Source of the DNA: Chthoniobacterales bacterium | GTDB lineage: Bacteria > Verrucomicrobiota > Verrucomicrobiia > Chthoniobacterales > UBA10450 | Reading direction: 5' to 3' | NCBI GenBank assembly: GCA_038240025.1 | Contig: JBBSED010000005.1 | Location: forward strand, 95,134-159,133 | DNA length: 64,000 bases | Shown: piece by piece, positions 22,687 through 35,837 of the stretch | How positions within the stretch are numbered: the first letter of the stretch is position 1 | Layout of the letters: each line of letters starts with the position of its first letter | Made by a program: the position numbers and the translations under genes | Notes under the pieces: model-generated | Told to the model about the DNA's origin: nothing | The model's database searches: none | Seen by the model: the letters and a program-made list of their open reading frames with translations, nothing else

Positions 22687-23562
22687 CTAACCCGGGACCG
22701 GCTCGGTCTCGTGCAACCGGCCGTAATCCACGATCAGTTTCCCCTCTGCGGTGAACTCGTAGATATCGACGAAGCGCTCGTTGAACCGGATGTCGCGGAC
22801 GCTGTAATCCTGCATGGACTGGACCGCGGCGGGGATGACCGTTTCAATGCAATTGAGCGAGACCACGAAACGCGCGTCGCTCGCGCGGAGCGACTCGAGC
22901 GTCTCGCCGTAGAGCGGGCTCGTCTCGTCGATGGTGTGCCGGACGGTGAGCGCGGTCGGGAAGACGATCAGGCGGTCGAAGTGGAGCTTCAGCATGTAGA
23001 ATTTCCGAAACTGATCATCCTCCAGGATCGCTTCGTCGCGGTTGAAATTAATCCGGAACTCCGCCTCGACCATGCTGTGGTTGCGCATGTTCGCCACCCG
23101 GATCATCAGCGTGGGCACGCCGTCGAAGGGCGCGATGACGATGTTCTTGCTGAACTCAACCCGCGCCGTCGGCCGGGAGAAGCGCACGAAGATGAGCCCG
23201 GTAATCACCGCGAGCCAGAACATCCCGACCATGATCTCGATCGTGGTCAGGAGATGGCCGTAAAGCGTCGCCGGGTAGGCATGTCCGTAGCCGACCGTGG
23301 CCAGCGTTTCCACACTGAAGAAAAAGGCCGCGAGCAAGGAACCGGGCTCGAGCCCATCGATGCAACGGCCGCCGATGGTGTAGAGCGCGGCGAAGAGGAG
23401 ATTGATCGCGAGGTAAACGCCCGCGATGAAGGCGGAGAACTGCGGCCAACTGAGCGAGAGCACCCAGTGATAAATGTCGCGCCATTCCCGCCGGCCGACG
23501 TTGATCTTGAGGAACTCGAACTGACCGACCTGCATTGAGACCGCGTGCGGTTTTTTCTTCAT
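22687..23562 (-). CDS. Inward-rectifier (Kir/KirBac-like) potassium channel
   Basis: Two TM helices, pore helix and selectivity filter TVGYG, plus a cytoplasmic Kir beta-rich domain. Confidence 0.7.
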   Translation of the reverse strand: MKKKPHAVSMQVGQFEFLKINVGRREWRDIYHWVLSLSWPQFSAFIAGVYLAINLLFAALYTIGGRCIDGLEPGSLLAAFFFSVETLATVGYGHAYPATLYGHLLTTIEIMVGMFWLAVITGLIFVRFSRPTARVEFSKNIVIAPFDGVPTLMIRVANMRNHSMVEAEFRINFNRDEAILEDDQFRKFYMLKLHFDRLIVFPTALTVRHTIDETSPLYGETLESLRASDARFVVSLNCIETVIPAAVQSMQDYSVRDIRFNERFVDIYEFTAEGKLIVDYGRLHETEPVPG

Positions 23563-23688
23563 GATGTGAGCCTGGCCCAGCGTCGCAACTTGGCGCGCAT
23601 TGAGGAGGTAAAGGAATTTCGTGCGCGCGTAAACCGGTCTGTTTCGCTGGACATTTCACTGTGGTTAAGAACTAATCATCGGCCTGTC

Positions 23689-24768
23689 ATGGCGGACGTG
23701 GAAACAAAGGGGGTCGAAAGCCGCGTCGTTTTCTCCAGTGGGGAAGACGCGTTCACGGTCCGCGATCTCATCGATGCCGCGCATTTCCGCGGCGAAGTGG
23801 CGCCGCTCTGGCGCGATCTCCTGCGCCTCGTCGCGGCGGAGGAAAAGGCGGACGCGCGCGAGCTCGAGATCGAAGACTCCGCGATCGACTCCGCGGCGGA
23901 ACAGTTTCGTTATCAGCACGACCTGATCACGGCGGAAGAAACGGAGCGCTGGCTGAGCGAACGCGGTCTCACCCTCGGAGATTTCGGGGCCTATTTCGTG
24001 CGCCATCATTGGGGCGAGACGGCGGAGGAAAGCGCGGCCGCGGCGGAGGATTATCTCGAAGCCTCCGCGGAAATGCGCGAGCTGCTCACGCTGGAATTGA
24101 TTCTGAACGGCGAGATCGAGCGCATGGCCGGCCGCTCGAGTTGGCGCGTCGCGGCGCGGCGCGCAGAGGGCGGCGGTGACGTCGCCGATGAATTGCTCAA
24201 CGCGGAGAAGGGCCGTTTCCTCGAGCGGAACGAACTGCCGCACGAGCAGGTGCCGGAATGGCTGGGCAAGCTTGAGCGCGATCACGCCTGGCTGCGCGAA
24301 CAGCTTGCGACCGAGGCGGTTTACCAGCGCACCACCGACGCGCTCCTCACCCGCGAAGCGCGCGCCCACGAAGTCTCGGCGCTCCGGTTGCCGCTCACGC
24401 TTTTCGAGGTCGAGACGATCGAGTTTGATTCGCTCGACGCCGCGCGCGAGGCGCTCCTCTGCGTGCGCACGGATGGCATGGAGATGCAGGCCGTGGCCGA
24501 GGAAGGCCGCTATCCCTACCGGCACGCGGAGATTTTGCTGGAGGATGTCCCGGAAGATTTGCAGCAGAAATTCCTCAGCGTCACGCCCGGCAGCGTGCTC
24601 GAACCGATCACTCGCGGCGATGGTTTCCACCTCTGCCGGATCATCGCCAAGGCGGAGCCAAACGTGGACGACCCGATCGTGAAAACCCGGGCGGAGGAGC
24701 GCATCCTCGATCGGCATTTCGGCGAGCTCTGCGCCCAGCACGTGCAATGGAAAAATCTTCTCCCCTAA
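23689..24768 (+). CDS. Hypothetical acidic protein, possibly with a C-terminal parvulin-like fold; first gene of the peptide-export operon
   Basis: Stop 4 nt before the peptidase-ABC start; family not recognised; stop TAA lies inside a motif variant. Confidence 0.3.
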   Translation: MADVETKGVESRVVFSSGEDAFTVRDLIDAAHFRGEVAPLWRDLLRLVAAEEKADARELEIEDSAIDSAAEQFRYQHDLITAEETERWLSERGLTLGDFGAYFVRHHWGETAEESAAAAEDYLEASAEMRELLTLELILNGEIERMAGRSSWRVAARRAEGGGDVADELLNAEKGRFLERNELPHEQVPEWLGKLERDHAWLREQLATEAVYQRTTDALLTREARAHEVSALRLPLTLFEVETIEFDSLDAAREALLCVRTDGMEMQAVAEEGRYPYRHAEILLEDVPEDLQQKFLSVTPGSVLEPITRGDGFHLCRIIAKAEPNVDDPIVKTRAEERILDRHFGELCAQHVQWKNLLP

Positions 24769-24772
24769 CGAA

Positions 24773-27700
24773 ATGAAGGCGACCGACGACACCCTCCTGC
24801 GGCGCGCGGCCCTCTTCCAGTTTCTCTCCGACGACCATTTCGAACAGCTGCGCGCGCTCCTGCACGAGGAACACTACGAGTTTGGCGACATCATCGTTAG
24901 GCAAGGCGAGCCGGCGGACGCGTTTTATATTCTTCTCTCCGGCCGCGCCCGGGTGGTGAAGGCCGACCAAAACGGCACCGAAGTGGTGCTCGCGAGCGTG
25001 AAGCCGGGCGATAGTTTCGGCGAAGCCGCGCTCGCCGAAGGCGGCACCCGCAACGCCACCGTCCGTTGCAGCACCGGCGTGGAAGCGCTCCGGCTCGATC
25101 GCGCGGATTTCCTCCAGGTGGTCGAGGAAAATCCGGAGCTGAAACAGCATCTCGAGATCACCGCGCGGCATCGCGCGCTCCACGGTTTTCTTTACCAGTT
25201 CAGCAATTTCGGCCGGTTGCCCGTGCCGGCCTTGCGCAGCTTGATCGAGAAGCTCCGACCGGTCGAAGTGGCGAAGGGGCGCGCCATCATCCAGCAGGGC
25301 GACGCCCCCGGCGCGATGTTCATTCTCGAAAAAGGGCGCGCCCGCGCGTTCGCGCAAAATAACGGGTCGACGAAGAATCTCGCCTTCTATCGCGATGGCG
25401 ACTTCTTCGGTGAGCTCTCAATTCTCAAAGGCACGCCCCGCTCCGCCTCGGTGGAGGCATTCAGCGATTGCCGGCTGCTCGCGCTCGAGCCGGCGGCGGT
25501 GCGCGACCTGAAGAAGAACTATCCGGAATTTGGCCAGCTGATGGAAGAACGGCTCGCCCAATACGAGGCAAAAACGGAGGCGCGCGTCCCGCTCGATTTC
25601 GATACCGAGATGCTCCCGGCCGCGAGCACGACGCACGACAAAGTCGCGCTCGACGAGAACGCGGCGAAGCGGAGCGACGACGCCACCGCACCCTTCGCGG
25701 AAGAGGGCGGGCTCTTCCGGAAAAGCAAAAAGCGGATCCGCAAAATCGAAGCGATCGAGCAGATCGACGAGATGGATTGCGGCGCTGCGAGCCTCGGGAT
25801 GATCTGCCGGCATTTCGGCCGCAAAGTCTCGCTCTCGCGGATCCGCCAGCTCTGCCACACCTCGACCGACGGCACGAGTTTGAAGGCGCTTTGCCGCGCT
25901 GCGACCGAGCTCGGGCTCGCGGCGCGCGCGCTCAAGGTGTCGCTGCGCAATCTCAACGTCATGCCGCTGCCGGCCATCATCCACTGGGAGGGCAACCACT
26001 GGATGGTGCTCTACGACGTGCAGCCGGCGTTCGTGAAAGTCGCCGATCCCGCGCGCGGCTTGCGCAAGATTCCGCGCAAAGAATTCGAGCAGAACTGGTC
26101 CGGCTACGCCGCGCTTTTCGATTACACGACGGCCTTCGAGAGCGCACCGGAAAGCAAGGCGTCGTTCGCGTGGATGTGGCCGTTCCTGGCGAAATTCAAA
26201 GTCATTTTCGCGCAGGTGATGCTCCTCGCGGTCGCGATCACGGTCCTCGAGCTGCTCTTCCCGATCTTTACCGAGATGGTGGTCGACAAGGTGATCGTCG
26301 AGAAAGACGTCGGCCTCCTCAAGATCATTCTGCTCGGGATGGGCGCGGCGCTTTTCTTCGTCACCGCTGCTTCGCTTGCGCAGGAATTTCTCCTCTCCTT
26401 CGCCGCCGTGCGGCTGGACACGGCGATCCTCGATTTCCTGAGCCGGCAGATGCTTTCGCTGCCGATGACTTATTTCACCACCCGGCGCACGGGCGACATC
26501 CAGCGGCGGCTCGATGGCGCGCGGCAGGTCCGGCAATTTGCCGTGCAGCACGGCATCGGCGCCATCCTCGCCCTCGTCCAGCTCGCGGGCGCTCTCGGAC
26601 TCATGGTCATCTACAGCCCGTCGCTCATGTTCGCCTTTCTCGCGACCACCCCGCTCTATCTCGGGCTGATGTATTTCTCGCAAAAGGTCCTGCGCCCGCT
26701 CTTCGCCGGCGTCGAGGAGAGCCAGGGGAAATATTCCTCGCACCAGATCGACGCGATCAAGGGGATCGAAGCGGTCAAAGCCGCCGCCGCGGAATCGGTC
26801 TTCCGCGACATGATGTTGAACGAGTTCCTCTCCGTTTCGAAAAAGCTCTTCCGGAGCAGCTTCATCGTCATGACCTACGACAGCGTGATGCAAAGCATCG
26901 GCATGATCTCGACCGCCGTTTTCCTCTGGGTCGGCGCGAACCAGGTGATGAACGGCGCGCTCTCGATCGGCGGCTTCGTCGCCTTCAGCTCGCTCACCGC
27001 GATGGCCTACAGCGGGATCATGCGAACGTTGGGCGTCTGGGATAATCTGCAGTTCGCGACCGTTTTGCTGAACCGGTTAAACGACGTCTTCGAGCAGGAA
27101 CCGGAGCAGGGTCGCGACCGTTCCCGCCTCACGCCGGTACACAGTCTCGAAGGGCGGATCGAATTAAAAAATGTCAGCTTCAAATACGGTGGGCCGGAAG
27201 CGCCGAACATTCTCGCCAACGTCACACTCGACCTCGCGCCCGGAAAAATGGTCGCGTTCGTCGGCCGGAGCGGTTGCGGCAAGACAACGCTGATCAAGCT
27301 CATTGCCGGTCTGCTCGAGCCGACGGAAGGGACGATCCTCTTCGATCACGTCGACCTGAAAACGCTCAACTACCGCGACGTGCGGCGACACATCGGGATG
27401 GTTTTACAGGAGAACCACATCTTCAACGAATCGATCGCGCGCAACATCGCTTTCGGCGACGCCGAGCCCGATCTCGACCGCGTCCTGGTCGCGGCGCAGG
27501 CGGCGGCAGCGCACGATTTCATCATGCGGTTGCCGATGGGTTACGAGACCAAGATCGGCGAATCCGGACTCTCCCTTTCCGGCGGACAAAAACAGCGGGT
27601 CGCGATCGCGCGCGCGATCTACAACAACCCGCCAGTGTTGATTTTCGACGAAGCCACCAGCGCCCTCGACACCGAATCGGAGCGTGCGATCCAGGATAAT

Positions 27701-27883
27701 CTCGGACGTTTGACCGCCGGCCGGACCACGATCGTGATCGCGCACCGCCTGAGCACGATCCGCGAAGCCGACGCCATCGTCGTTCTGGAAAAAGGCTCCG
27801 TCGCCGAGGTCGGCAACCATGACCAGCTGATGGCGCAGCGCGGTCTCTATTTCTACCTCAGCAGCCAGCAGCTGGGGATTTAA
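24773..27883 (+). CDS. Peptide-export ABC transporter: two N-terminal cNMP-binding domains + C39 double-glycine peptidase + permease + ATPase
   Basis: cNMP phosphate-binding cassettes (FGEAALAEGGTRNATV, FGELSILKGTPRSASV), C39 catalytic Cys (MDCGAASLGMI) and His (EGNHWMVLYD), 6 TM helices, Walker A GRSGCGKTT, signature LSGGQKQR. Confidence 0.8.
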   Translation: MKATDDTLLRRAALFQFLSDDHFEQLRALLHEEHYEFGDIIVRQGEPADAFYILLSGRARVVKADQNGTEVVLASVKPGDSFGEAALAEGGTRNATVRCSTGVEALRLDRADFLQVVEENPELKQHLEITARHRALHGFLYQFSNFGRLPVPALRSLIEKLRPVEVAKGRAIIQQGDAPGAMFILEKGRARAFAQNNGSTKNLAFYRDGDFFGELSILKGTPRSASVEAFSDCRLLALEPAAVRDLKKNYPEFGQLMEERLAQYEAKTEARVPLDFDTEMLPAASTTHDKVALDENAAKRSDDATAPFAEEGGLFRKSKKRIRKIEAIEQIDEMDCGAASLGMICRHFGRKVSLSRIRQLCHTSTDGTSLKALCRAATELGLAARALKVSLRNLNVMPLPAIIHWEGNHWMVLYDVQPAFVKVADPARGLRKIPRKEFEQNWSGYAALFDYTTAFESAPESKASFAWMWPFLAKFKVIFAQVMLLAVAITVLELLFPIFTEMVVDKVIVEKDVGLLKIILLGMGAALFFVTAASLAQEFLLSFAAVRLDTAILDFLSRQMLSLPMTYFTTRRTGDIQRRLDGARQVRQFAVQHGIGAILALVQLAGALGLMVIYSPSLMFAFLATTPLYLGLMYFSQKVLRPLFAGVEESQGKYSSHQIDAIKGIEAVKAAAAESVFRDMMLNEFLSVSKKLFRSSFIVMTYDSVMQSIGMISTAVFLWVGANQVMNGALSIGGFVAFSSLTAMAYSGIMRTLGVWDNLQFATVLLNRLNDVFEQEPEQGRDRSRLTPVHSLEGRIELKNVSFKYGGPEAPNILANVTLDLAPGKMVAFVGRSGCGKTTLIKLIAGLLEPTEGTILFDHVDLKTLNYRDVRRHIGMVLQENHIFNESIARNIAFGDAEPDLDRVLVAAQAAAAHDFIMRLPMGYETKIGESGLSLSGGQKQRVAIARAIYNNPPVLIFDEATSALDTESERAIQDNLGRLTAGRTTIVIAHRLSTIREADAIVVLEKGSVAEVGNHDQLMAQRGLYFYLSSQQLGI

Positions 27884-27897
27884 CCTTCCGCCTAACG

Positions 27898-29079
27898 ATG
27901 CCTAACGAACTCATGCAGCCAGGGTCGATCGACAAGGAATCGGAGATGCTCCCGCAGGATCCACCGCCCTGGTTCGTCCGCTCGGCCGCGTGGCTCATGG
28001 TCTCGATGTTCGGGGTCGCGCTCCTCGCCTCGGTGCTGGTGAAGCTGCCGGAAACGGTCAGTTGTCCCTTCGTGCTCACCTCGGCTTCGGGCGCCGATCC
28101 GATTCAATCGCCCCGCCTCGCCGTCGTGGACAAGGTCTGCGTCACCGAAGGGCAAACCGTCCGCAAGGCCGCGCCGCTCTTCCTCCTCCGCTCCGATGAG
28201 ATCCGTGGCATGGACACGGATCAACGCACCCTCACCGAAGATCTCCACACGCACGAGGAAGGCTTGGCGAAAGCAGACGCGGCTTTCGCGGCGCAGCTCG
28301 AGATCAAGACCGCCGAGATCGCGCAGGCGGAAAGCGAAGTCGGCTTCCGCGAAAAGCATTCCGCCACCAGCCGCGACCTCGTCGAGCGGATGAACAAGTT
28401 GACCAAAAACGGCGGCATCTCCAAGGTCGAAGTGCTCCGTTATCAACTCGAATCGGCTGAATCCGACAAGGACCTGAGCGTCGCGCAACGGACCGTGCAG
28501 CAGGTCGGCCTCGAGCTCACGCAGCTCAAGAATGAACACGCCCGCGCGCACGACGAAAACGTGGCCGAGATCGAAAAACTGAAGGTCCGCCTGAGCGCGC
28601 TGCGGGGAGACTTGGAAAATTCTAAACAAAATGTCCTCACCGTCCGAGCGCCCTACGACGCCGTGGTCATCTCGCTCGCGCAGCGCAACGCGGGGAGCGT
28701 GGTCCAAAACGGCCAGGAGCTTTGCCAGCTTTCCGCGACCGATTCGAAACCGCGTGCCCGCCTCGTGGTCGGCGAAGCGGGACTTCCAAAACTGGCGAGT
28801 GGCCAGACCGTGCGCCTTTTCTTCGACGCGTTCCCCTACCAGCGCTACGGCGTCGTCTCCGCTAAGCTGGACTGGATTAGTCCCGCGGCGGTCGCCTCCA
28901 CGGACGGGCCGCAGTTCATCGGGCTCGCCTCGCTCGATGCCAGCTCCGCGGGCCGGCGTCGTCCGCTCGCCGTGCGCGTTGGCATGACGGGCGAAGCGCG
29001 CATCGTGGTCGGCCAGCGCACGATCATGGAATACGCTTTCGAGCCAATCCGCCAGTTGCGCGAGAACGTGCGCGACTAA
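27898..29079 (+). CDS. HlyD-family secretion (membrane fusion) protein
   Basis: N-terminal TM, long coiled-coil, C-terminal beta domain; start ATGCCTAACGA overlaps two motif copies. Confidence 0.7.
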   Translation: MPNELMQPGSIDKESEMLPQDPPPWFVRSAAWLMVSMFGVALLASVLVKLPETVSCPFVLTSASGADPIQSPRLAVVDKVCVTEGQTVRKAAPLFLLRSDEIRGMDTDQRTLTEDLHTHEEGLAKADAAFAAQLEIKTAEIAQAESEVGFREKHSATSRDLVERMNKLTKNGGISKVEVLRYQLESAESDKDLSVAQRTVQQVGLELTQLKNEHARAHDENVAEIEKLKVRLSALRGDLENSKQNVLTVRAPYDAVVISLAQRNAGSVVQNGQELCQLSATDSKPRARLVVGEAGLPKLASGQTVRLFFDAFPYQRYGVVSAKLDWISPAAVASTDGPQFIGLASLDASSAGRRRPLAVRVGMTGEARIVVGQRTIMEYAFEPIRQLRENVRD

Positions 29080-29088
29080 CCAGCCGCC

Positions 29089-30087
29089 ATGCTGCGCCCG
29101 CTTTCCAAGCTCAAGATCGAGGACATCGCGACCACGAACCCCGCGATGGCGCGCTGCCTGAAGCTCGCGCAACTCGCCGCCACTTCCGACGTGCCGGTCG
29201 TCTTGTTAGGCGAAACTGGGACCGGCAAAACCCTGCTGGCCCACGCGATCCACAATTCCTCCGGTCGCGCCGAGCGCCCGTTCGTCGCCTTCAACGCCTC
29301 CGCGATGAGCGACACCTTGATCGAGAGCCAGCTCTTCGGGCATGAGCGCGGCGCCTTCACCGGCGCGCAAACGACCGTGAAAGGGAAATTCGAGCTCGCC
29401 AGCCAGGGCACGCTTTTCCTCGACGAAATCGCGGACATGAGCCCGCTCGCGCAGGTAAAGATCCTGCGCGTGCTCGAGTACGGCGAATTCGAGCGCGTCG
29501 GCTCCGAGCACATGCTCACCTGCGACGTGCGGATCATCTGCGCGACCAACTGTTCGCTGCGCGACCGCGTGCGCCAGGGCAAATTCCGCGAAGACCTCTA
29601 CCATCGCTTGAACGGACTCACCCTGCTCATCCCTTCCCTGCGCGACCGGAGCGAAGAGCTCCCCGCGCTCATCGCCGCCGAGCTGCGTGCGTCCGCCCGG
29701 AACGAGGGGAAAAAGATCACCGCCATTCATCCCGCGGCGATGGGCAAGCTGCTCACCTACGATTGGCCGGGCAACCTGCGCGAGCTCAATCACACCGTGC
29801 GCACGATGACGCTCTTCTGCGATGGGCGCGTCATTCTTCCCGAGCACGTCGTTTTTCCCCCGGATTTGCAAACCAGCGAACCTGAACCGCTCCCCGCCGT
29901 CGCTCCTGCGCCGGACGAAAACGGCAGCGAACCGCCCCCCGATGATTTTTCCCTTGCCACCGCGCTAGCGCGTCACGTCGCCTCGGTCTATGAACAGACG
30001 GGACGGAACCAGCGCCAGACCGCGCGCCGGCTGGGCATCTCCCGCGCCACGCTCGCCCGGCACCTGCGAAAGATGAGTCAAAAGTGA
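29089..30087 (+). CDS. Sigma-54-dependent transcriptional activator (AAA+ and HTH domains only, no receiver)
   Basis: Walker A GETGTGKT, GAFTGA, ELPALI... and C-terminal Fis-type HTH (RRLGISRATL). Confidence 0.8.
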   Translation: MLRPLSKLKIEDIATTNPAMARCLKLAQLAATSDVPVVLLGETGTGKTLLAHAIHNSSGRAERPFVAFNASAMSDTLIESQLFGHERGAFTGAQTTVKGKFELASQGTLFLDEIADMSPLAQVKILRVLEYGEFERVGSEHMLTCDVRIICATNCSLRDRVRQGKFREDLYHRLNGLTLLIPSLRDRSEELPALIAAELRASARNEGKKITAIHPAAMGKLLTYDWPGNLRELNHTVRTMTLFCDGRVILPEHVVFPPDLQTSEPEPLPAVAPAPDENGSEPPPDDFSLATALARHVASVYEQTGRNQRQTARRLGISRATLARHLRKMSQK

Positions 30088-30192
30088 ACCGTGAACCGGA
30101 TCAGGAATGCGACGCGACAGTTTCACAACGAGACCGGCTGGGAAAGGCACCTCCGAGCCGGCCAAAGTCTTTTTCAGAAACTTTCGCCTTGT

Positions 30193-30262
30193 CGTTAGAT
30201 CCCCAGTTACCTATGAAAACATGGCCCGTAACCCTGCGCGACGCTCGTTCGTTAGATGGGGA
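30193..30262 (+). promoter_or_regulatory. Candidate enhancer/promoter region of the small-peptide operon
   Basis: CGTTAGA-TCCCCA ... CGTTAGA-TGGGGA (direct 7-mers with inverted 6-mers) flank a weak -24/-12-like TGGCCC-N6-CTGCG; spacing off consensus by 1. Confidence 0.25.
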
Positions 30263-30303
30263 AACCGGGCCCCGGCATGGATCATGATAAGAGGACGGCG
30301 AAC

Positions 30304-30498
30304 GTGAGTACGGCGAAGGACAAAAAAGCAGCGGCGGCGGGGGATTCTTCGATTCCCAAGCCGAAACGCGGCAAAGAAAAATTGATCAAGCTCGATGATC
30401 TAATCCCGAAAGGGAACGTCTCGGGCGGGAGACAATTGCTCTTCGGCGCCACGGACATCAACACAACAACAACAACCAAAAACAAAACAAGGAGATAG
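30304..30498 (+). CDS. Small conserved protein A1 with a double-glycine-leader-like motif (…KLIKLDDLIPKGNVSGG RQLLFGATDI…)
   Basis: GTG start with AAGAGGA RBS; paralog A2 differs mainly at synonymous sites (purifying selection). Confidence 0.55.
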   Translation: MSTAKDKKAAAAGDSSIPKPKRGKEKLIKLDDLIPKGNVSGGRQLLFGATDINTTTTTKNKTRR

Positions 30499-30503
30499 CT
30501 CAT

Positions 30504-30677
30504 ATGGCTCAGAAAAAAGAAGTACAAGTCAAAGACCTGAAACCGAAAAAAGACGCCAAAGGCGGCGTGGGCGCGCGGCAGCAAACCAACACCAGCCGCA
30601 GCCAGACGAATCGCGGCACCCACCAGGCCGATTCGAGTCGTGGCAACGCCAACGGCGCGACCCGCGGCCTCCTGTAA
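30504..30677 (+). CDS. Small peptide P1 (57 aa, not in the ORF track): leader MAQKKEVQVKDLKPKKDAKGG, then a Gln/Thr/Asn/Arg-rich Cys-free core
   Basis: Strong RBS AAGGAGA 8 nt upstream of the ATG; paralogous to P2 and P3. Confidence 0.6.
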   Translation: MAQKKEVQVKDLKPKKDAKGGVGARQQTNTSRSQTNRGTHQADSSRGNANGATRGLL

Positions 30678-30756
30678 GGATTACCATCGGACAGCCGACC
30701 CGCGGTCCGAACCCGCGCGGCAGTCCACCTCTCCCTGGTTAGGAGTAATCAAAGAG

Positions 30757-30787
30757 CCGCAGGCGACCGTTTCGCCGGCGGCTTTTT
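30757..30787 (+). terminator. Rho-independent terminator after P1 (also closes convergent nlpC-like gene)
   Basis: 10-bp stem CCGCAGGCGA/TCGCCGGCGG (one mismatch), loop ccgtt, followed by CTTTTTCGATTT. Confidence 0.6.
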
Positions 30788-30791
30788 CGAT

Positions 30792-31316
30792 TTAGAGACC
30801 GGCCGGATGCCGGGACTCGAAGCCGCGCGGCGGACGGTTGTTTGGATGCCAGCGCGGCGCGTCGCGATCGTCGCGGCTATTCCAGGCCGTCGTATCCAGG
30901 CGCAGGCCGGCGATGACGGCGTAAGCATGGCCGTTCCGCGCGTAAACGGTGATCCATTTGCCGCGACCATGCTGACCGTAGCGAACCAGGTCGTTCGAGC
31001 TCATCGGTAACCGCAATAAACCCGCTGCCGCCAGCGCATAGGAAACCGTGCCGGAGCAGTCGTAGCCGCTATCGAGAAAAGACCGATGCCCGCCGCCGTA
31101 CCGGTACGGCCGTTTGCGCAATTCATTCGCGGCCCAGATCGCGCGCTTCACCGCCAGCGGCGCCTTGTCCGGGGCGCAGGCCACCCCGTGGCGGAGCTGC
31201 GCGACCTGTCCCGGCACCGTCGGCCCGCGGGTCGGGAAGGGATTCTCCGCCAGCGCGGGTGCTGCTCCAAAAACGAAAAGGTTGAGAATGACGCCGATGC
31301 GTCGCAATAACTTCAT
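30792..31316 (-). CDS. Secreted NlpC/P60-family cysteine peptidase
   Basis: Signal peptide; YRYGGGH...GYDCSGTVSYAL (catalytic Cys) ... NGHAYAVIAG (His). Confidence 0.6.
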   Translation of the reverse strand: MKLLRRIGVILNLFVFGAAPALAENPFPTRGPTVPGQVAQLRHGVACAPDKAPLAVKRAIWAANELRKRPYRYGGGHRSFLDSGYDCSGTVSYALAAAGLLRLPMSSNDLVRYGQHGRGKWITVYARNGHAYAVIAGLRLDTTAWNSRDDRDAPRWHPNNRPPRGFESRHPAGL

Positions 31317-31422
31317 ACTTTTCCAGTAGCCGTTGGCGTGCCAGCCGGGGCCACTGGATTAAACGACGCGCGGAAGTTTTCGACGTTTCTCGCTTTCCGC
31401 GCAACCCTTTCCGCTGCAGCCA

Positions 31423-31700
31423 ATGGAAAAAGAGCAAATCGTCGAGGTTCTCGAAACCATCGCGACCCTGCTCGACCTCCAGAAGAGAACCCGTACAAGA
31501 TGCGCGCCTACACGAACGGAACTGCGGCGAGAAGCCGCGGCGGCCGGCCGGCTCCCGCACTGTTGTCGCCATCAACGCCTCCGCCATGAGCGATACCCTG
31601 ACCGAGTGCCAGCTCTTCGGCCACGAACGCGGGTCACCAACGCCGGAGCGCGCGAAGGTTAGGCAGCTCGCGCGCAACCCTGGCACGGCACTTACAGAAA
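31423..31700 (+). pseudogene. Duplication-junction remnants: 5' fragment of polX fused to internal and 3' fragments of the sigma-54 activator gene
   Basis: MEKEQIVEVLETIATLLDLQ... matches the polX N-terminus (33254..); ...VAINASAMSDTLTECQLFGHER... and ...RHLQKLNQK* match the activator at ~29290 and ~30060. Confidence 0.6.
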
Positions 31701-31929
31701 CTTAATCAAAAGTGAGCCAAAAGGTTGGGACGAATCGATGCCAAGGAGCGAAACAATGAGACCGACTCGACTCTACCCGGAGAAGTCCTGCCAAACTATT
31801 TTCGCAATTTTTTCGCCGTCATACGCTGCTTAATGCAGAGGGAAGCGAACCCCATCGGACGGGATCGTTAGGCCATGACAAGGCCAGCAAAATGGCCCCG
31901 GCACAGAAGATGATAAGGAGAAGACAACC

Positions 31930-32112
31930 GTGAGTACGCCGAAGAACAAAAGAGCCGCCTTCGCGGGGGAATCTGAGATTCCCCGCAGAAGCGGCAAAGC
32001 AAAATTGCTCCGGCTCGATGACGTCATTCCCAAAAAGAATGTCGCGGGCGGGCGGCGGTTGCTCTTCGGCGCGACTGACATCGACCCAACAACCAACAGA
32101 AAAAGGAGTTAG
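31930..32112 (+). CDS. Small conserved protein A2 (paralog of A1; …KLLRLDDVIPKKNVAGG RRLLFGATDI…)
   Basis: GTG start, RBS GATAAGGAG. Confidence 0.55.
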   Translation: MSTPKNKRAAFAGESEIPRRSGKAKLLRLDDVIPKKNVAGGRRLLFGATDIDPTTNRKRS

Positions 32113-32117
32113 TTATT

Positions 32118-32291
32118 ATGGCTACAGACAAGAAAAAAGAAGTGAAGATGAAAGACCTCAAGCCCAACAAAGACGCCAAAGGCGGCGTGGCTCGTCAAAC
32201 CAACACCCAGAAGGGCAACGTGAATCGCGCGGGCGGTCAGACGAACAAGCTCGGTTCCGACGATCCCATTATAATCAACAAGAATCGATAG
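32118..32291 (+). CDS. Small peptide P2 (57 aa, not in the ORF track): leader MATDKKKEVKMKDLKPNKDAKGG
   Basis: RBS AAAAGGAG; paralog of P1. Confidence 0.6.
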   Translation: MATDKKKEVKMKDLKPNKDAKGGVARQTNTQKGNVNRAGGQTNKLGSDDPIIINKNR

Positions 32292-32404
32292 CGATTACCG
32301 CCCGGGACGGGTATCCGCCCGTGGCGCCTCCCAGGCAGGCGCTCGGCGGTCCAAACCCGCTCGACTCCACTAAAAAAACCTCAAACAACCGAAAGAAAAA
32401 AACT

Positions 32405-32575
32405 ATGGCTACAGCTAAGAAAACGAGCAAAACCGGCGCGAGCAAAAAGCCCAGCGTCAAAATGAGCGACCTCAAACCGTCGAAAGACGCCAAGGGCGGC
32501 GTCGCCACGAAACGTCCCGCGAGCAATCGCGGGACCCGATCGGTGGACGGCCGCGTTGGACGTCAGATCAACTGA
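32405..32575 (+). CDS. Small peptide P3 (56 aa): leader MATAKKTSKTGASKKPSVKMSDLKPSKDAKGG
   Basis: In-frame C-terminal part of track ORF 32018..32575; shares the DLKPxKDAKGG|V motif. Confidence 0.5.
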   Translation: MATAKKTSKTGASKKPSVKMSDLKPSKDAKGGVATKRPASNRGTRSVDGRVGRQIN

Positions 32576-32601
32576 TCGTCGCCAAAATCCTCCGAAGGAG
32601 A

Positions 32602-32643
32602 CGGCCGCCGCGGTTTACCGTTGGCGGCCGGTTCTTTCTCTTC
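32602..32643 (+). terminator. Rho-independent terminator after P3
   Basis: CGGCCGCC-13 nt loop-GGCGGCCG followed by GTTCTTTCTCTTC. Confidence 0.5.
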
Positions 32644-33333
32644 GGCCGTAGTTGTGGGCGGTGGCGATGGCCCCCCTTACAACCCCGCAGGATGGCGCAC
32701 TTCGAAACCGCGCGGGGGCGCGATTCGCCGGATGCCACCGCGGCGCATCGCGATCGCTGCGATCATTCCGCGCGTAGACCTTGATCCATTTTCCTCGGCC
32801 GTGCTTTCCGTAATGCAGCAGGTCGCTTGAGCTCATCGGAACCTGAAGCAAGCCCGCGCCCGCCAGCGCATAGGAAACCGGACCGGAACAATCGTAGCGC
32901 CGTCGTTAAATGAACCATGGCCGCCGCCCCATCGATACGGCCGTTTGCGCAATTGCTTGCCCGCCCAGATCGCTCGCTTCACCCCCAGCGGCGCTTTTTC
33001 CGGCGCGCAAGCGACGCCGTGGCGGAGTTGCGCGGTGTTACCAGGGACCGTCGGGCCGCGCAGAGAAAACGATTCCGCCGACAAAGATTGCGACGCTCCT
33101 AAGAAGATAAAAAATGGAAAAGACCCCGCCGCGCCGCCAGAATTCCATGCCTCTATCCAAGCGGTTGGCGTGCCAGGCGGGATTCTGGCGCACACCGAAG
33201 TTCGGCGCATCGACGCAATCGCTTTTCCGCGCAACAGTTTCCCTGTGCTGGAGATGAAAAAAGAACAAATCGTCGAGGTTCTCGAGACGATTGCGACTTT
33301 GCTCGAGCTGCAAGCGGAGGAGAATCCGTTCAA
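32615..33333 (-). pseudogene. Second NlpC/P60-like copy, frameshifted and internally deleted
   Basis: Two ORFs in different frames; the DCSG and His regions are lost relative to 30792..31316. Confidence 0.55.
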
Positions 33334-35020
33334 AATTCGCGCTTACACCAACGCTGCGCGTTCGATCGAAACCTGGGGCGGCAACCTGCGCGAGCTCGCC
33401 GCGGAGGATCGGCTCCAGGAGATCCCCGGCGTCGGCAAAGCGATCGCCGGCAAAATCAGCGAGCTGGTGCTGACCGGCTCCTTGAAGTTTTACGACGAAC
33501 TGCGCGCGCAGTTTCCCGAGAAAATTCTCGAGCTTTTTTCTCTCCCGGGATTGGGCGCGAAAAAAATCAAGGCGCTCTACGAGAAGTTAGCGGTGAACTC
33601 GATCGCCGATCTGGCACGCGCCTGCACCGAAGGCCGGGTCGCGGAGCTGCCCGGGTTCGGCAAGGCGACGCAGGAAAAATTCGCTAAGACCATCGCGGAT
33701 CGCGCCCGTCATGCGGGGAGTTTTTCGATCGGGGCAGTCGCGGGCGCGGCCGAGCAGTTGCAGCGCGATCTGCGCCAACACCCGGACGCCCTCCTGGTCA
33801 GCACCGCGGGAAGTTATCGGCGTCGCAAGGAAATCGTGCGCGATCTCGATTTCATCGTCGCGACGAAAGAGCCGGCGGCGGTCACAGAATTTTTCGTTAG
33901 GCATGCGCTCGTCGAGAGCGTAATCGCGCGCGGCTCGACGAAGACGAGCGTGCGCTTGCACTCGGGCATTCAGGCTGATCTGCGCGTCGTCAGCAACGCC
34001 GAATATCCTTTCGCGCTGGGCTATTTTACCGGGAGCAAAGAGCACAATATCGTGTTGCGGAACCGGGCCCTGCAGCGCGGTTGGACGCTCAACGAATACC
34101 GGCTCGCGCCCGCCGAGGGAGGACCGACGCAGAAGAAGAAGCGCCCCGCAGAGAAGATCCCGCTGGTCGGAGACGAGGCGGATTTGTATCGCGCGCTGGG
34201 ACTCGACTTCGTTCCGCCGGAGCTGCGCGAAAACTGTGGCGAAATCGAAGCCGCCGCGGAGGGCCGTTTGCCGCGGCTGCTCGAGCCGGAGAATTTGCGG
34301 GGCACTTTTCATTGCCACACGAGCGCGAGCGATGGCCGGAATTCGCTCGAGGAAATGGCCGCGGCCGCGCAGGAGCTAGGCCTGCAATATCTGGGCATCG
34401 CGGATCACAGCCGCAGCTCGATCCAGGCGGGCGGACTTGATCGGACGCGCCTCCGGGCGCAAGTCGCAGCCATTCGAGAATTGAACAAGTCGTTTGACGG
34501 CTTCCGGCTTTTCGCTGGCGTCGAGTGCGACATTCTGCGCGACGGCTCGCTCGACTTCGACGACGAAACCTTAGCCGGCCTCGACTACGTGGTGGCCTCG
34601 ATCCATTCCGCGTTTCAGTTGCCGGAAGCTGAGATGACCGAGCGGATCATCCGCGCCATCCAAAATCCGCACGTCACCTTTCTCGCGCATCCGACCGGTC
34701 GGCTGCTCCTGCGGCGCGAAGCCTACGCGATCGACATTCCCGCCATCCTCGACGCGGCGGCCGCGACTGGGACGTGGATCGAAATCAACGCCGCGCCGAA
34801 GCGGCTCGATCTCGACTGGCGCTGGTGGCCGTTGGCGAAGGAGAAGGGAGTAAAATGCGTGATCAATCCCGACGCGCACGGGGTGGAGAAATTGCCGGAG
34901 CTTTGGTTCGGGGTCGGTGTCGCGCGCAAAGGCTGGCTCACCAAAAGCGACGTGATGAATTGCCTCCCGTTAGGCAAGATCGAGGTGGCGCTAGAGAAAA
35001 AGCGGCAGGCCAGCGGCTAA
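33254..35020 (+). CDS. polX: DNA polymerase X family protein with C-terminal PHP domain
   Basis: Helix-hairpin-helix and Pol-beta-like palm, then PHP motifs HCHTSASDG ... DHS. Confidence 0.75.
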   Translation: MKKEQIVEVLETIATLLELQAEENPFKIRAYTNAARSIETWGGNLRELAAEDRLQEIPGVGKAIAGKISELVLTGSLKFYDELRAQFPEKILELFSLPGLGAKKIKALYEKLAVNSIADLARACTEGRVAELPGFGKATQEKFAKTIADRARHAGSFSIGAVAGAAEQLQRDLRQHPDALLVSTAGSYRRRKEIVRDLDFIVATKEPAAVTEFFVRHALVESVIARGSTKTSVRLHSGIQADLRVVSNAEYPFALGYFTGSKEHNIVLRNRALQRGWTLNEYRLAPAEGGPTQKKKRPAEKIPLVGDEADLYRALGLDFVPPELRENCGEIEAAAEGRLPRLLEPENLRGTFHCHTSASDGRNSLEEMAAAAQELGLQYLGIADHSRSSIQAGGLDRTRLRAQVAAIRELNKSFDGFRLFAGVECDILRDGSLDFDDETLAGLDYVVASIHSAFQLPEAEMTERIIRAIQNPHVTFLAHPTGRLLLRREAYAIDIPAILDAAAATGTWIEINAAPKRLDLDWRWWPLAKEKGVKCVINPDAHGVEKLPELWFGVGVARKGWLTKSDVMNCLPLGKIEVALEKKRQASG

Positions 35021-35823: not shown

Positions 35824-35837
35824 GGTAAATTTTCCGC

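What the first reader, a model, noticed from the sequence alone, without database searches (positions are those of the whole stretch)
23689..33333. Sigma-54-controlled, cyclic-nucleotide-gated double-glycine peptide export locus with an unrecognised family of small Cys-free peptides
The operon comprises a hypothetical protein, a cNMP-binding(x2)-C39-peptidase-ABC transporter, an HlyD protein and a sigma-54 activator. It is followed by small genes that the 60-aa ORF track misses. P1 (30504..30677), P2 (32118..32291) and P3 (32405..32575) share the leader M-x-(K)DLKP-x-KDAKGG immediately before Val. This fits a double-glycine cleavage site for the C39 domain. Their cores (36, 34 and 24 aa) are rich in Gln/Thr/Asn/Arg/Gly, lack Cys and are strongly hydrophilic, so they are unlike lantibiotic, NHLP/Nif11 or class II bacteriocin cores. 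P1 and P2 are each preceded by a second conserved small gene. A1 and A2 carry …L-x-x-LDD-x-IPK-x-NV-x-GG and then R-x-LLFGATDI. The paralogs differ mostly at synonymous sites, so they are under selection. A secreted NlpC/P60 peptidase gene follows each module. A cNMP-binding domain fused to a C39-ABC exporter is known by architecture, but I do not recognise these precursor peptides as a described family.
Basis: partly seen in the sequence, partly recalled or inferred. Interest (0 to 1): 0.85.

Follow-up and report, generated by a model that had tools for sequence, protein, structure and literature searches.

The report
Gated peptide-export locus, two undescribed peptide families
A gene cluster conserved in soil Verrucomicrobia (Chthoniobacterales, including Candidatus Udaeobacter) pairs a nucleotide-sensing peptide-cleaving exporter with two undescribed families of tiny secreted peptides, one conserved and one hypervariable; the machinery is a known kind, but the peptides and their wiring are new.

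Summary
The window carries a SurA/PrsA-like chaperone gene, a cNMPx2-C39-ABC exporter with an intact catalytic triad, a HlyD adaptor and a domain-less sigma-54 activator with GAFTGA. Five small genes follow: A1, P1, A2, P2 and P3.

A and P share one atypical double-glycine leader, h-x-h-x-DL-x-PK-x-x-[AV]-x-GG. The order chaperone-exporter-HlyD-activator-A-P(1-3) recurs in at least 157 species-level genomes, all Chthoniobacterales, Ca. Udaeobacter or unclassified Verrucomicrobia.

- **A family:** at least 192 proteins, with an invariant ...LDDLIPKxxVxGG|RQLLFGATD.
- **P family:** at least 600 clusters at 50% identity. The leader is nearly invariant. Cores are Cys-free, cationic and disordered, and often built of short tandem repeats.
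- **Selection:** pN/pS is 0.05-0.2 for leaders and A, and about 0.8-1 for P cores.
- **Regulation:** a -24/-12-like element lies 29 nt before A in almost every locus, but its -12 C is never present. Three phased dyads lie 125-200 nt further upstream.

Corrections: the two modules are an old tandem duplication, the second NlpC/P60 is a pseudogene, and NlpC/P60 is not part of the system. No Pfam, NCBIfam, Rfam or literature match exists for A or P. Verdict: a new variant of a known kind; the function of the peptides is unknown.

The parts
23689..24768 (+). Gene 1: cytoplasmic SurA/PrsA-like accessory protein (359 aa). It has a helical chaperone-like body plus a C-terminal parvulin-fold domain and is distantly related to TIGR04500/MirC.
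24773..27883 (+). Peptidase-containing ABC transporter (PCAT) with two N-terminal cyclic-nucleotide-binding domains (1036 aa).
   Evidence: Pfam cNMP_binding x2, Peptidase_C39, ABC_membrane, ABC_tran. The C39 domain aligns to LahT150 (E 2.6e-21), PCAT1 and ComA, with DCG Cys, NHW His and ADP Asp in register. Full-length matches to PCAT1, ComA and HlyB. The CNB pair resembles PKA-R/PKG.
27898..29079 (+). HlyD-family membrane-fusion (periplasmic adaptor) protein, 393 aa.
   Evidence: TIGR01843 type_I_hlyD E 1.5e-39; Pfam HlyD_3 and HlyD_D23. It always follows the PCAT gene in related loci.
29089..30087 (+). Sigma-54 enhancer-binding protein made only of an AAA+ domain plus a Fis-type HTH (332 aa). 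It has no sensory or receiver domain.
   Evidence: Pfam Sigma54_activat E 5e-64 over residues 14-179, AAA_lid_14, HTH_8. GAFTGA at nt 29350. The 330-340 aa length is conserved in related loci.
30075..30134 (.). Three phased 16-nt dyad-like sites (30075-30090, 30098-30113, 30119-30134), consensus GGCCTAAAAATGAGCC. This is the putative enhancer (UAS) for the activator. The first site overlaps the activator's stop codon.
   Evidence: A PWM trained on other loci scores 13.3, 10.1 and 9.5 bits. The triplet is conserved with 20-24 nt spacing, 125-200 nt upstream of the -24 element. Single sites are not specific: 29 sites of >=9 bits occur in the window.
30273..30290 (+). Sigma-54-like -24/-12 element CGGCATGGATCATGATAA before A1.
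   Evidence: The motif occurs once per 20-kb locus, 29 nt before the A start. GGCA and TG are invariant. No RNA structure is conserved there. No sigma-70-like promoter is found in 23300-33400.
30304..30498 (+). A1: conserved small peptide (64 aa, GTG start). Leader ...KLIKLDDLIPKGNVSGG, predicted core RQLLFGATDINTTTTTKNKTRR.
   Evidence: pN/pS is 0.19-0.21 across orthologs. Where the GTG is lost, an ATG appears two codons downstream.
30504..30677 (+). P1: variable small peptide (57 aa). Leader MAQKKEVQVKDLKPKKDAKGG, core 36 aa.
   Evidence: The exact protein is also called as a gene in a public assembly. An AGGAG Shine-Dalgarno sequence precedes it, and it starts 5 nt after the A1 stop.
31703..31762 (.). 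Second-copy enhancer-like sites (31703-31718 and 31747-31762 are good; the middle one is degraded), inside the remnant of the duplicated activator 3' end.
   Evidence: 11.4, 4.3 and 10.2 bits.
31899..31916 (+). Second copy of the -24/-12-like element (CGGCACAGAAGATGATAA) before A2.
31930..32112 (+). A2: paralog of A1 (60 aa). Sequence ...KLLRLDDVIPKKNVAGG|RRLLFGATDIDPTTNRKRS.
32118..32291 (+). P2: variable peptide (57 aa). Leader MATDKKKEVKMKDLKPNKDAKGG, core 34 aa.
32405..32575 (+). P3: variable peptide (56 aa). Longer leader ...KKPSVKMSDLKPSKDAKGG, core 24 aa.
   Evidence: Second and third P genes with the same 'MxTxKK...' longer leaders occur in many related loci.

Best explanation
This is a self-contained peptide secretion module specific to Chthoniobacterales. 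I propose the following sequence of events.

1. A domain-less sigma-54 activator binds three phased sites at the end of its own gene. From there it drives a -24/-12-type promoter directly in front of a two-gene (or longer) peptide cassette.
2. The cassette encodes A, a conserved peptide, and one to three P peptides, which are hypervariable. All carry the same atypical double-glycine leader: a basic stretch, then h-x-h-x-D-L-x-P-K-x-x-[A/V]-x-G-G.
3. The cytoplasmic SurA/PrsA-like protein probably holds or presents these disordered, Pro-containing leaders.
4. The C39 domain of the ABC exporter cuts after GG. The cores leave through the exporter, the HlyD adaptor and an outer-membrane channel encoded elsewhere.
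5. The two N-terminal cyclic-nucleotide-binding domains make export conditional on an intracellular nucleotide signal.

The released products are unmodified, Cys-free, cationic, disordered peptides. A (RQLLFGATD plus a polar tail, about 2.2-2.5 kDa) most likely acts as a conserved signal or regulatory peptide. The P cores (11-50 aa, often pentapeptide-type repeats with one basic residue per unit) are strain-specific cargo for competition or recognition between close relatives.

**Shown here:** gene content, catalytic residues, the shared leader, conservation and selection patterns, and the promoter-like and enhancer-like elements.

**Inferred:** cleavage, export, nucleotide gating, the chaperone role, and every statement about what the mature peptides do.

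For: **Substrates.** A and P leaders align in register by profile-profile comparison (P 1.7e-4).

**Linkage.** The gene order is conserved in 79 of 79 inspected loci from 157 genome hits. A close relative carries the unduplicated arrangement, and distant ones keep HlyD-activator-A-P-P without the NlpC/P60 or PolX neighbours.

**Real genes.**
- Pooled ortholog pN/pS is 0.21 for the A block, 0.18 for the P leader and 1.01 for the P core.
- In close genome pairs it is 0.10 (activator), 0.19 (A), 0.05 (P leader) and 0.80 (P core). Core pN is about 40 times leader pN.
- The leader and the 3' flank stay conserved while the core is replaced through indels and repeats.

**Family size.** A has at least 192 proteins. 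P has 600 clusters at E<=1e-3.

**Core properties.** 107 of 110 cores are unique and 0 of 107 contain Cys. Net charge is +3.7 and GRAVY is -1.04. 31 of 107 carry at least three tandem units.

**Regulation.** The promoter-like element is described, with no RNA structure. Orphan P genes keep the promoter element.
Against: - There is no experimental or transcript evidence of any kind.
- The -12 element lacks the consensus C in every locus. The implied start site leaves only about 4 nt before the GTG, which would exclude the apparent Shine-Dalgarno sequence from the mRNA.
- No rpoN gene was seen in the DNA held.
- The leader does not fit the canonical PCAT pattern of hydrophobic residues at -7, -12 and -15. 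It has Lys at -7 and Pro at -8.
- No immunity gene, receptor kinase or outer-membrane factor is conserved in the cluster. Neither a bacteriocin role nor a signalling role therefore has its usual partner.
- The CNB ligand is unknown; the CNB domain of HetC binds ppGpp in vitro.
- Gene 1 seems to lack the first catalytic His of parvulins. This was judged by eye and the strand positions, so isomerase activity is doubtful.
Confidence: 0.62

Rival explanations
1. The P peptides are classical microcin-like or class II bacteriocin-like toxins. They kill related strains, and immunity is encoded elsewhere or provided by the exporter itself. A is a second toxin component or an inducer.
For: The machinery is of Gram-negative PCAT + HlyD type, as for class II microcins. 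The cores are unmodified and sit behind a GG leader. Extreme core diversification occurs between near-identical strains. Several paralogs occur per locus. A and P are adjacent and probably translationally coupled, as in two-peptide bacteriocins.
Against: No immunity gene is conserved in the cluster. The cores have no hydrophobic or amphipathic segment, almost no aromatic residues and GRAVY -1.04, so membrane activity is unlikely. No existing bacteriocin model matches. Core composition is conserved while sequence is free, which fits poorly with recognition of a specific receptor.
Confidence: 0.2
2. Export-coupled regulation. A, or the 42-residue basic leader fragment left in the cell after cleavage, modulates the domain-less activator. 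Nucleotide-gated export of A would then set transcription of the cassette, as a FlgM- or ExsE-like checkpoint built on a PCAT.
For: The activator has no sensory domain, like PspF and HrpR/S, which are controlled in trans (established knowledge). A is present once per system and is strongly conserved, including the residues after GG, unlike the cargo P. Extra modules lose A but keep the promoter and P. The authors of the HetC study propose a similar idea for that CNB-PCAT.
Against: There is no evidence of any A-activator contact. A simple feed-forward logic, with the activator co-transcribed with the exporter, explains the layout as well. A's N-terminal third is only moderately conserved.
Confidence: 0.12
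3. The P peptides are poly-pheromone precursors. The tandem 3-9-residue units, mostly with one Arg, Lys or His each, are released outside the cell by proteolysis as many copies of a short signal. This would resemble yeast alpha-factor or Phr-type pentapeptides.
For: 31 of 107 cores contain at least three tandem units, most often pentapeptides such as TAGRT, RQGAT, NRSAT and VAGRT with one basic residue per unit. Copy number changes between close strains (L029 versus L031 differ by one unit).
Against: Two thirds of the cores, including all three in this window, have no clear repeats. No conserved extracellular protease, importer or receptor is linked to the system.
Confidence: 0.08
4. A and P are RiPP precursors whose Ser-, Thr- and Asn-rich cores are modified (for example glycosylated or phosphorylated) by enzymes encoded elsewhere, or by gene 1.
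For: A conserved leader with a hypervariable core is the RiPP hallmark. Gene 1 is distantly related to TIGR04500, whose member MirC is needed for graspetide maturation. Some cores are rich in N-x-S/T motifs.
Against: No modifying enzyme (ATP-grasp, LanM, radical SAM, YcaO, glycosyltransferase) is conserved in 79 loci. Gene 1 has a chaperone/parvulin fold, not a modifying-enzyme fold. There is no Cys. There are no hits to NHLP, Nif11 or other precursor models.
Confidence: 0.1
5. The small ORFs are not genes. The conservation reflects non-coding regulatory DNA or RNA downstream of the activator.
For: The ORFs are very short, low-complexity and Lys/Arg-rich, and most annotations miss them.
Against: Codon-level purifying selection acts on leaders and A while synonymous sites are saturated (pS 0.54-0.64, pN 0.11). 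Start-codon compensation is seen. AGGAG sequences lie at the right distance. The reading frame of the leader is always kept while cores change by indels. There is no Rfam hit and no conserved RNA fold. The GG motif sits next to a dedicated GG protease.
Confidence: 0.02

Closest known systems
HetC of Nostoc PCC 7120 (PCAT with an N-terminal cyclic-nucleotide-binding domain)
   Same: The architecture is CNB domain + active C39 peptidase + ABC exporter in a Gram-negative bacterium. A regulatory nucleotide is proposed to gate export of a peptide (PMC10986499).
   Different: As described in that paper, HetC has one CNB domain, no adjacent membrane-fusion gene and no recognisable GG-leader gene nearby, so its substrate is unknown. 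Here there are two CNB domains, a HlyD gene, and obvious substrates immediately downstream. Orthology to HetC was not tested.
Class II microcin systems (e.g. CvaA/CvaB/TolC with microcin V) and Gram-positive ComAB/ComC or PCAT1/CtA
   Same: A PCAT plus membrane-fusion protein exports unmodified peptides after cleavage behind a GG leader. The C39 catalytic residues are conserved.
   Different: The leader is atypical, with Pro at -8, Lys at -7 and no hydrophobic residues at -7, -12 or -15. The cores are fully hydrophilic and disordered. There is no immunity gene (bacteriocin case) and no two-component sensor (ComC case). The system adds CNB domains, a SurA-like protein and a sigma-54 activator.
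NHLP/Nif11 leader peptide families with NHLM-type exporters (TIGR03793, TIGR03798, TIGR03796); prochlorosins
   Same: A highly conserved leader ending in GG is joined to hypervariable cores, with several paralogs per genome. The exporter's best NCBIfam hit is TIGR03796.
   Different: The exporter scores 533.5 against a cut-off of 853.3. The leaders are 21-42 aa with no similarity to nitrile hydratase or Nif11. There are no hits to those models, no Cys and no modifying enzyme.
MirC / TIGR04500 'putative peptide maturation system protein' of the rosaritide graspetide cluster
   Same: It is a cytoplasmic SurA-like chaperone-domain protein encoded next to a PCAT in a small-peptide cluster.
   Different: Sequence similarity is very weak (26.6 bits against a cut-off of 180). 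MirC's partner is an ATP-grasp ligase, which is absent here. MirC reportedly lacks similarity to the PPIase domain, whereas the model here has a clear parvulin-fold domain.
PspF- and HrpR/S-type sigma-54 activators lacking a regulatory domain
   Same: They consist of an AAA+ domain with GAFTGA plus a C-terminal HTH only.
   Different: Those are controlled by known trans-acting inhibitors (PspA, HrpV). No such partner is identified here. The target promoter has a non-consensus -12.

Membership tests
Peptidase-containing ABC transporter (PCAT/AMS) | N-terminal C39 peptidase domain with catalytic Cys, His and Asp | tested here: met
   Pfam Peptidase_C39 E 3.5e-36. The alignment to LahT150, PCAT1 and ComA places DCGAAS, NHWMVL and VADPA in register with their catalytic residues.
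Peptidase-containing ABC transporter (PCAT/AMS) | Type I exporter transmembrane domain plus nucleotide-binding domain in the same chain | tested here: met
   ABC_membrane E 1e-42 and ABC_tran E 1e-36. Full-length alignment to PCAT1 and ComA, residues 323-1031.
Peptidase-containing ABC transporter (PCAT/AMS) | Cleaves and exports GG-leader substrates | not testable with these tools
   Only co-localisation with GG-leader genes in 79 loci is available.
Canonical double-glycine leader peptides (class II bacteriocin / microcin / ComC type) | Gly-Gly (or GA/GS) at -2/-1 and a small or hydrophobic residue at -4 | tested here: met
   GG is invariant. Position -4 is Ala in P (98%) and Val in A (100%).
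Canonical double-glycine leader peptides (class II bacteriocin / microcin / ComC type) | Amphipathic helix with hydrophobic residues at -7, -12 and -15 | tested here: not met
   P has Lys at -7, Pro at -8 and Arg/Lys at -12. A has Lys at -7, Pro at -8 and Asp at -12. Hydrophobic positions are instead -10 and -13, and -15/-16 in A.
Canonical double-glycine leader peptides (class II bacteriocin / microcin / ComC type) | Recognised by existing family models | tested here: not met
   There are no NCBIfam or Pfam hits even at E<=10.
Bacteriocin/microcin locus | Dedicated immunity gene linked to the toxin gene | tested here: not met
   Only four proteins plus A and P are conserved across loci. Downstream genes differ between clades.
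NHLP / Nif11 precursor families with NHLM exporters | Long leader homologous to nitrile hydratase alpha or Nif11 (TIGR03793/TIGR03798), and an exporter above the TIGR03796 cut-off | tested here: not met
   No precursor model hits. Exporter scores 533.5 bits against a cut-off of 853.3.
Lanthipeptide or other Cys-dependent RiPPs | Cys in the core and a linked modifying enzyme | tested here: not met
   0 of 107 cores contain Cys. No modifying enzyme is conserved in the cluster.
HetC-type CNB-PCAT | Cyclic-nucleotide-binding domain N-terminal to C39-ABC | tested here: met
   There are two cNMP_binding domains, residues about 33-120 and about 170-260. HetC is described with one.
HetC-type CNB-PCAT | Nucleotide (ppGpp or cNMP) binding that controls function; orthology to HetC | not testable with these tools
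   Domain 2 has the FGE...PRSA cassette (seen in the sequence). No binding assay was possible, and no HetC sequence was available to compare.
TIGR04500 (MirC-like peptide maturation partner) | Score above the model cut-off | tested here: not met
   26.6 bits against a cut-off of 180.
TIGR04500 (MirC-like peptide maturation partner) | SurA-like chaperone fold, cytoplasmic, encoded beside a PCAT | tested here: met
Sigma-54-dependent promoter | Cognate enhancer-binding protein with GAFTGA | tested here: met
Sigma-54-dependent promoter | -24 TGGCAC-type element with GG, and correct spacing to the -12 G | tested here: met
   YGGCAYG, with GG-N10-G invariant in about 80 loci.
Sigma-54-dependent promoter | -12 TTGC(W) with the conserved GC doublet | tested here: not met
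   The position of the C is A, T or G in every locus (TG[ATG]T). No canonical TGGCAC-N5-TTGC lies upstream of A.
Sigma-54-dependent promoter | Upstream activator sites about 100-200 bp away | tested here: inconclusive
   Three phased dyad-like sites are conserved. Single sites are not specific, and no binding was tested.
Sigma-54-dependent promoter | rpoN present in the genome; transcription start 12-13 nt after the -12 element | not tested
   No RpoN box was found in the 1.4 Mb held, which is not a whole genome. No transcript data are available.

The most novel reading that the evidence does not exclude
The locus may be a secretion-coupled sigma-54 switch. The conserved A peptide, or the basic 42-residue leader fragment that stays inside after cleavage, would control the sensor-less activator. 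A second-messenger signal read by the exporter's CNB domains would then be converted, through export of A, into transcription of a hypervariable library of secreted repeat peptides. Those peptides would serve as strain identity tags or weapons in Chthoniobacterales, the order that includes the soil lineage Candidatus Udaeobacter. That would be a regulatory principle not yet described for PCATs. It would also supply a working model for what HetC does in cyanobacterial development.
Probability: 0.12. Interest if true: 0.85.

Novelty: new variant of a known kind. Interest (0 to 1): 0.66.

Why it matters
- **A tractable CNB-PCAT.** The only studied PCAT with a nucleotide-binding domain, HetC, has no known substrate. 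This system has the same type of exporter with its substrates, adaptor and regulator side by side. Nucleotide gating of a PCAT therefore becomes directly testable in vitro.
- **Hidden small-protein families.** Two sizeable families (A with at least 192 proteins, P with at least 600 clusters at 50% identity) have no Pfam, NCBIfam or literature description. They sit in at least 157 species-level Chthoniobacterales genomes, including Candidatus Udaeobacter. From my own knowledge, not tested here, that lineage is among the most abundant soil bacteria.
- **A new leader type.** The motif DL-x-PK-x-x-[AV]-x-GG is a PCAT recognition motif with a conserved Pro, paired with a cytoplasmic SurA-like protein. 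It is useful for genome mining and as a possible secretion tag.
- **Localised hypervariation.** P cores change by repeat gain and loss and by frameshifts between an almost frozen leader and a conserved 3' flank. This is a clean natural case of localised hypervariation without a diversity-generating retroelement.

Tried and rejected
- **Canonical sigma-54 promoter.** TGGCAC-N5-TTGCW upstream of A or of gene 1 is not present. Window matches with up to 2 mismatches are at chance level (22 observed, 21.4 expected).
- **Mis-spaced pattern.** My first motif search used N7 instead of N6 and missed the sites. This was corrected.
- **Sigma-70 promoter.** None is found in 23300-33400. A TTGGCA/TAAnAn pairing has only a 10-nt spacer, so I rejected it.
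- **RNA element around the conserved motif.** There is no Rfam hit. The consensus fold energy is -0.14 kcal/mol, with only 3 trivial pairs. The apparent TGGCAT...ATGCCA hairpin exists in only a few loci.
- **NlpC/P60 and PolX as system parts.** Rejected. They are conserved only in the closer clade and replaced by unrelated genes in distant loci.
- **Exact look-up of the exporter protein.** It is not on record.
- **AlphaFold-database fold search for gene 1.** The library was unavailable.
- **Positive selection on P cores.** pN/pS is 0.8-1.1, not clearly above 1, and the alignments are unreliable because of indels. I claim only strongly relaxed or accelerated evolution.
- **Canonical sigma-54 sites elsewhere in the fetched loci.** There are 2 exact matches in 1.4 Mb against about 1.3 expected by my own estimate, which is uninformative.
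- **Diversity-generating retroelement.** No reverse transcriptase gene is among the conserved neighbours.

Full report
**1. What is in the window**

- Gene 1 runs 23689-24768 (359 aa from the Met used by relatives).
- A 1036-aa protein at 24773-27883 carries two cNMP_binding domains, Peptidase_C39, ABC_membrane and ABC_tran.
- A HlyD-family adaptor lies at 27898-29079.
- A 332-aa sigma-54 activator at 29089-30087 consists only of the AAA+ domain (from residue 14) and a Fis-type HTH. It contains GAFTGA.

Five small genes follow on the same strand: A1 (GTG 30304-30498), P1 (30504-30677), A2 (31930-32112), P2 (32118-32291) and P3 (32405-32575). A1, P1, A2 and P2 have an AGGAG-type Shine-Dalgarno sequence; P3's is weak. 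P1 and P2 start 5 nt after the stop of A1 and A2.

**2. The two modules are a duplication**

Repeat analysis shows direct repeats with a 1620-1831 nt period and 73-85% identity. tblastn finds scars between the modules:
- residues 63-98 and 308-332 of the activator, at 31556-31712;
- the first 40 or so residues of the downstream PolX gene, at 31423-31535.

The segment from the activator to the 5' end of polX was therefore duplicated in tandem, and the second activator copy then decayed. A close relative (contig_38990; 91-95% protein identity) has the single ancestral arrangement: gene 1, PCAT, HlyD, activator, A, P, NlpC/P60, PolX.

The first NlpC/P60 gene (30792-31316, minus strand) is intact. 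The second (about 32681-33114) has a frameshift and an 18-residue deletion, so it is a pseudogene.

**3. The small genes are real and belong to two large families**

*P family.* A search with P1 returned 33 peptides. They share an almost identical leader, MAQKK(E)TKKIKVRDLKPKKDAKGG, and have unrelated cores. A profile search of 1.84 billion cluster representatives found 600 clusters at E<=1e-3.

*A family.* A search with A1 returned at least 192 proteins of about 60-65 aa, all named 'hypothetical'. Named ones come from Chthoniobacterales, Spartobacteria or Verrucomicrobia MAGs. The block LDDLIPKxxVxGGRQLLFGAT is invariant or nearly so.

*Genomes.* Scanning one genome per species with the A profile gave 157 confirmed genomes. 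The 79 loci kept are all titled Chthoniobacterales, Candidatus Udaeobacter, Spartobacteria, Verrucomicrobiae or Verrucomicrobia(ota).

*Gene order.* tblastn of the window proteins shows the order gene 1, PCAT, HlyD, activator directly upstream of A wherever the contig reaches far enough. NlpC/P60 and PolX follow only in the closer clade. In the loci inspected, each has one A (two in L035 and L085), followed by one to three P genes.

*Selection.*

| Comparison | Activator | A | P leader | P core |
|---|---|---|---|---|
| Orthologs pooled (pN/pS) | - | 0.21 | 0.18 | 1.01 |
| Close genome pairs (pN/pS) | 0.10 | 0.19 | 0.05 | 0.80 |
| Window paralogs (pN/pS) | - | 0.57 (A1/A2) | 0.19 (P1/P2) | 1.14 (P1/P2) |

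Synonymous sites in the pooled ortholog comparison are near saturation. DNA alignments of close pairs show an almost frozen leader and a conserved 3' flank. The core between them changes through indels, repeat gain and loss, and frameshifts. Where the GTG of A is lost, an ATG appears two codons later. The 'not a gene' reading is therefore untenable.

**4. One leader type for both families**

Counting back from GG, A and P share [V/A] at -4, Lys at -7, Pro at -8, Leu at -10, Asp at -11, a hydrophobic residue at -13 and a basic stretch further upstream. A profile-profile comparison aligns IrLDDLIPKgnVsGG with iKVrDLKPKKDAKGG in register (P 1.7e-4).

This differs from the classical PCAT leader, which has hydrophobic residues at -4, -7, -12 and -15 (established knowledge of ComC, CtA and LahT substrates). 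No Pfam or NCBIfam model matches A or P, even at E<=10.

**5. The cores**

Of 110 P cores from the genome loci, 107 are unique.
- Length is 11-50 aa, median 33.
- Composition is G 19.5%, S 11.7%, A 11.0%, R 10.7%, T 9.4%, N 8.5% and Q 6.5%.
- None contains Cys.
- Mean GRAVY is -1.04 and mean net charge is +3.7.
- 31 of 107 contain at least three tandem copies of a 3-9-residue unit. These are mostly pentapeptides with one basic residue, such as TAGRT, RQGAT, NRSAT, VAGRT and HGPTQ. GHT and GQHT units also occur.

The window's own cores fit the composition but are not repetitive. A's predicted core is the opposite: a fixed RQLLFGATD followed by a short polar tail.

**6. The proteins**

*C39 domain.* Its best solved relatives are LahT150 (E 2.6e-21), PCAT1 and ComA. 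The catalytic Cys (DCGAAS), His (NHWMVL) and Asp (VADPA) align.

*CNB domains.* The N-terminal 319 residues match tandem CNB domains of PKA regulatory subunits and PKG. Read directly from the sequence, the second domain has the canonical FGELSILKGTPRSASV cassette. The first has FGEAALAEGGTRNATV.

The one characterised TIGR04500 member, MirC, is a SurA-like partner protein. It is required for maturation of a graspetide and is encoded beside a PCAT (PMC13097080). No ATP-grasp or other modifying enzyme is present here. I infer a role in leader binding or presentation, possibly centred on the invariant Pro at -8. Catalytic prolyl isomerase activity is doubtful.

**7. Regulation**

No canonical TGGCAC-N5-TTGC lies upstream of A. 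Aligning the activator-A spacers revealed a sharply conserved element, YGGCAYGRAT-NN-TG[ATG]T[AT]A, 29 nt before the A start.
- With the right spacing it occurs four times in the window, twice at A1 and A2.
- It occurs once in most 20-kb related loci, always at the same place. Extra copies sit only in front of duplicated A genes or of orphan P genes that retain a remnant of A.
- The -24 half is a perfect sigma-54 match and the GG-N10-G spacing is right. The consensus C of the -12 GC doublet is never present.
- There is no conserved RNA fold, no Rfam hit and no sigma-70-like promoter.

Further upstream lie three 16-nt dyad-like sites (consensus GGCCTAAAAATGAGCC). They start on the activator's stop codon, sit 20-24 nt apart, and lie 125-200 nt before the -24 element. 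In the window they are at 30075-30134, with a partly decayed copy at 31703-31762. This is the classical enhancer-plus-promoter layout of sigma-54 genes.

It is not proof. Single sites are common (29 in the window), rpoN was not seen in the DNA held, and the geometry predicts a start only about 4 nt before the GTG. That would exclude the apparent Shine-Dalgarno sequence from the transcript. This last point is unexplained.

**8. Mechanism and function**

*Shown:* the parts list, the catalytic residues, the shared leader, the linkage and the selection pattern.

*Inferred:* the activator drives A-P. The SurA-like protein handles the leaders. C39 cuts after GG. The exporter, HlyD and an unlinked outer-membrane channel release the cores. 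The CNB domains gate the process. The ligand may not be a cyclic nucleotide, because HetC's CNB domain binds ppGpp in vitro.

The role of the mature peptides is open. The usual partners of a bacteriocin (an immunity gene) or of a pheromone (a sensor kinase) are both absent from the conserved cluster.

My working view is that A is a conserved signal or regulatory peptide. P would be strain-specific cargo whose composition matters more than its sequence. Rivals are set out separately: microcin-like toxins, export-coupled control of the sensor-less activator, poly-pheromone precursors, and RiPPs modified elsewhere.

**9. Comparison and novelty**

The system works like a Gram-negative PCAT/HlyD peptide exporter and meets the defining PCAT features. 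It fails membership tests for canonical GG-leader families, NHLP/Nif11, Cys-based RiPPs, TIGR04500 proper, and the strict sigma-54 -12 consensus. The closest studied transporter is HetC, whose substrate is unknown and which has no adjacent adaptor or GG-leader gene.

Full-text searches found no description of these peptides or of this cluster. The library does not cover most subscription journals.

I therefore class it as a new variant of a known kind. It has two undescribed peptide families and a new leader motif. Interest is moderately high because it makes CNB gating of a PCAT directly testable and because of the breadth of the lineage.

Noticed in passing
window 31423-31712: Scars of the tandem duplication. 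There is a polX 5' fragment (31423-31535, with a frameshift). Two fragments of the sigma-54 activator follow: residues 63-98 at 31556-31663 and residues 308-332 at 31638-31712. Their coordinates overlap in different frames, which implies an internal deletion of about 210 codons.
   Followed up: yes
window 32681-33114 (minus strand): The second NlpC/P60 copy is a pseudogene, with a frameshift near residue 83 and an 18-residue deletion. The long plus-strand ORF 32945-35020 listed by the ORF finder is PolX extended upstream, antisense to this pseudogene. The real PolX start is about 33254 (MKKEQIVEVLE).
   Followed up: partly
L036 13124-13390; L039 9152-9421; L067 9161-9400: These are orphan P modules. 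The promoter-like element is kept, A is reduced to a roughly 100-nt remnant, and P is intact. L067's orphan has a leader without the Pro (DLKVKKDVKGG).
   Followed up: partly
L050 versus L052 (10186-10420); L018-L021 (10192-10360): Between genomes whose A genes differ at <=12% of synonymous sites, the P core is rewritten by a 2-nt indel directly after the GG codons and by repeat changes. In L052 the frame then runs through the old stop into the conserved 3' flank. Frameshifting in repeat DNA looks like a routine source of new cores.
   Followed up: partly
window 30299-30306 and the equivalent position in about 80 loci: If the conserved element is a -24/-12 promoter, the transcript of A would start about 4 nt before its GTG start codon. 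That would make it a nearly leaderless mRNA with a GTG start. The conserved 'TAAnAGG' would then be promoter sequence, not a ribosome-binding site. This is unexplained.
   Followed up: partly
window 30767-30781: A terminator-like hairpin (CCGTTTCGCCGGCGG followed by CTTTTTCGAT) sits between P1 and the convergent NlpC/P60 gene. It may be a bidirectional terminator.
   Followed up: no
window 20988-23562 (minus strand): Upstream neighbours are a PhoX-like phosphatase with a signal peptide (weak Pfam hit) and a bacterial inward-rectifier-type (IRK/KirBac-like) potassium channel. Both are also present in the closest relative (L002).
   Followed up: no
window 35017-37208 (minus strand): A DDAH-like amidinotransferase-fold gene lies next to an ArgZ-like arginine dihydrolase / LOR-SDH gene. 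The pair suggests an arginine catabolism module.
   Followed up: no
window 56000-60000: GC content drops to 0.55 from about 0.62 over ordinary housekeeping genes (PlsY, MnmG/GidA, a VTT/DedA-family membrane protein). There is no sign of a mobile element.
   Followed up: partly
L046 1230-1300: A perfect canonical sigma-54 promoter, TGGCACGCGCGTTGCA, lies about 35 nt before an ORF that begins with a signal-peptide-like sequence. One such match is within chance expectation for 1.4 Mb. It hints that canonical sites may exist in these genomes, which would make the missing -12 C at the A promoter a specific feature.
   Followed up: no
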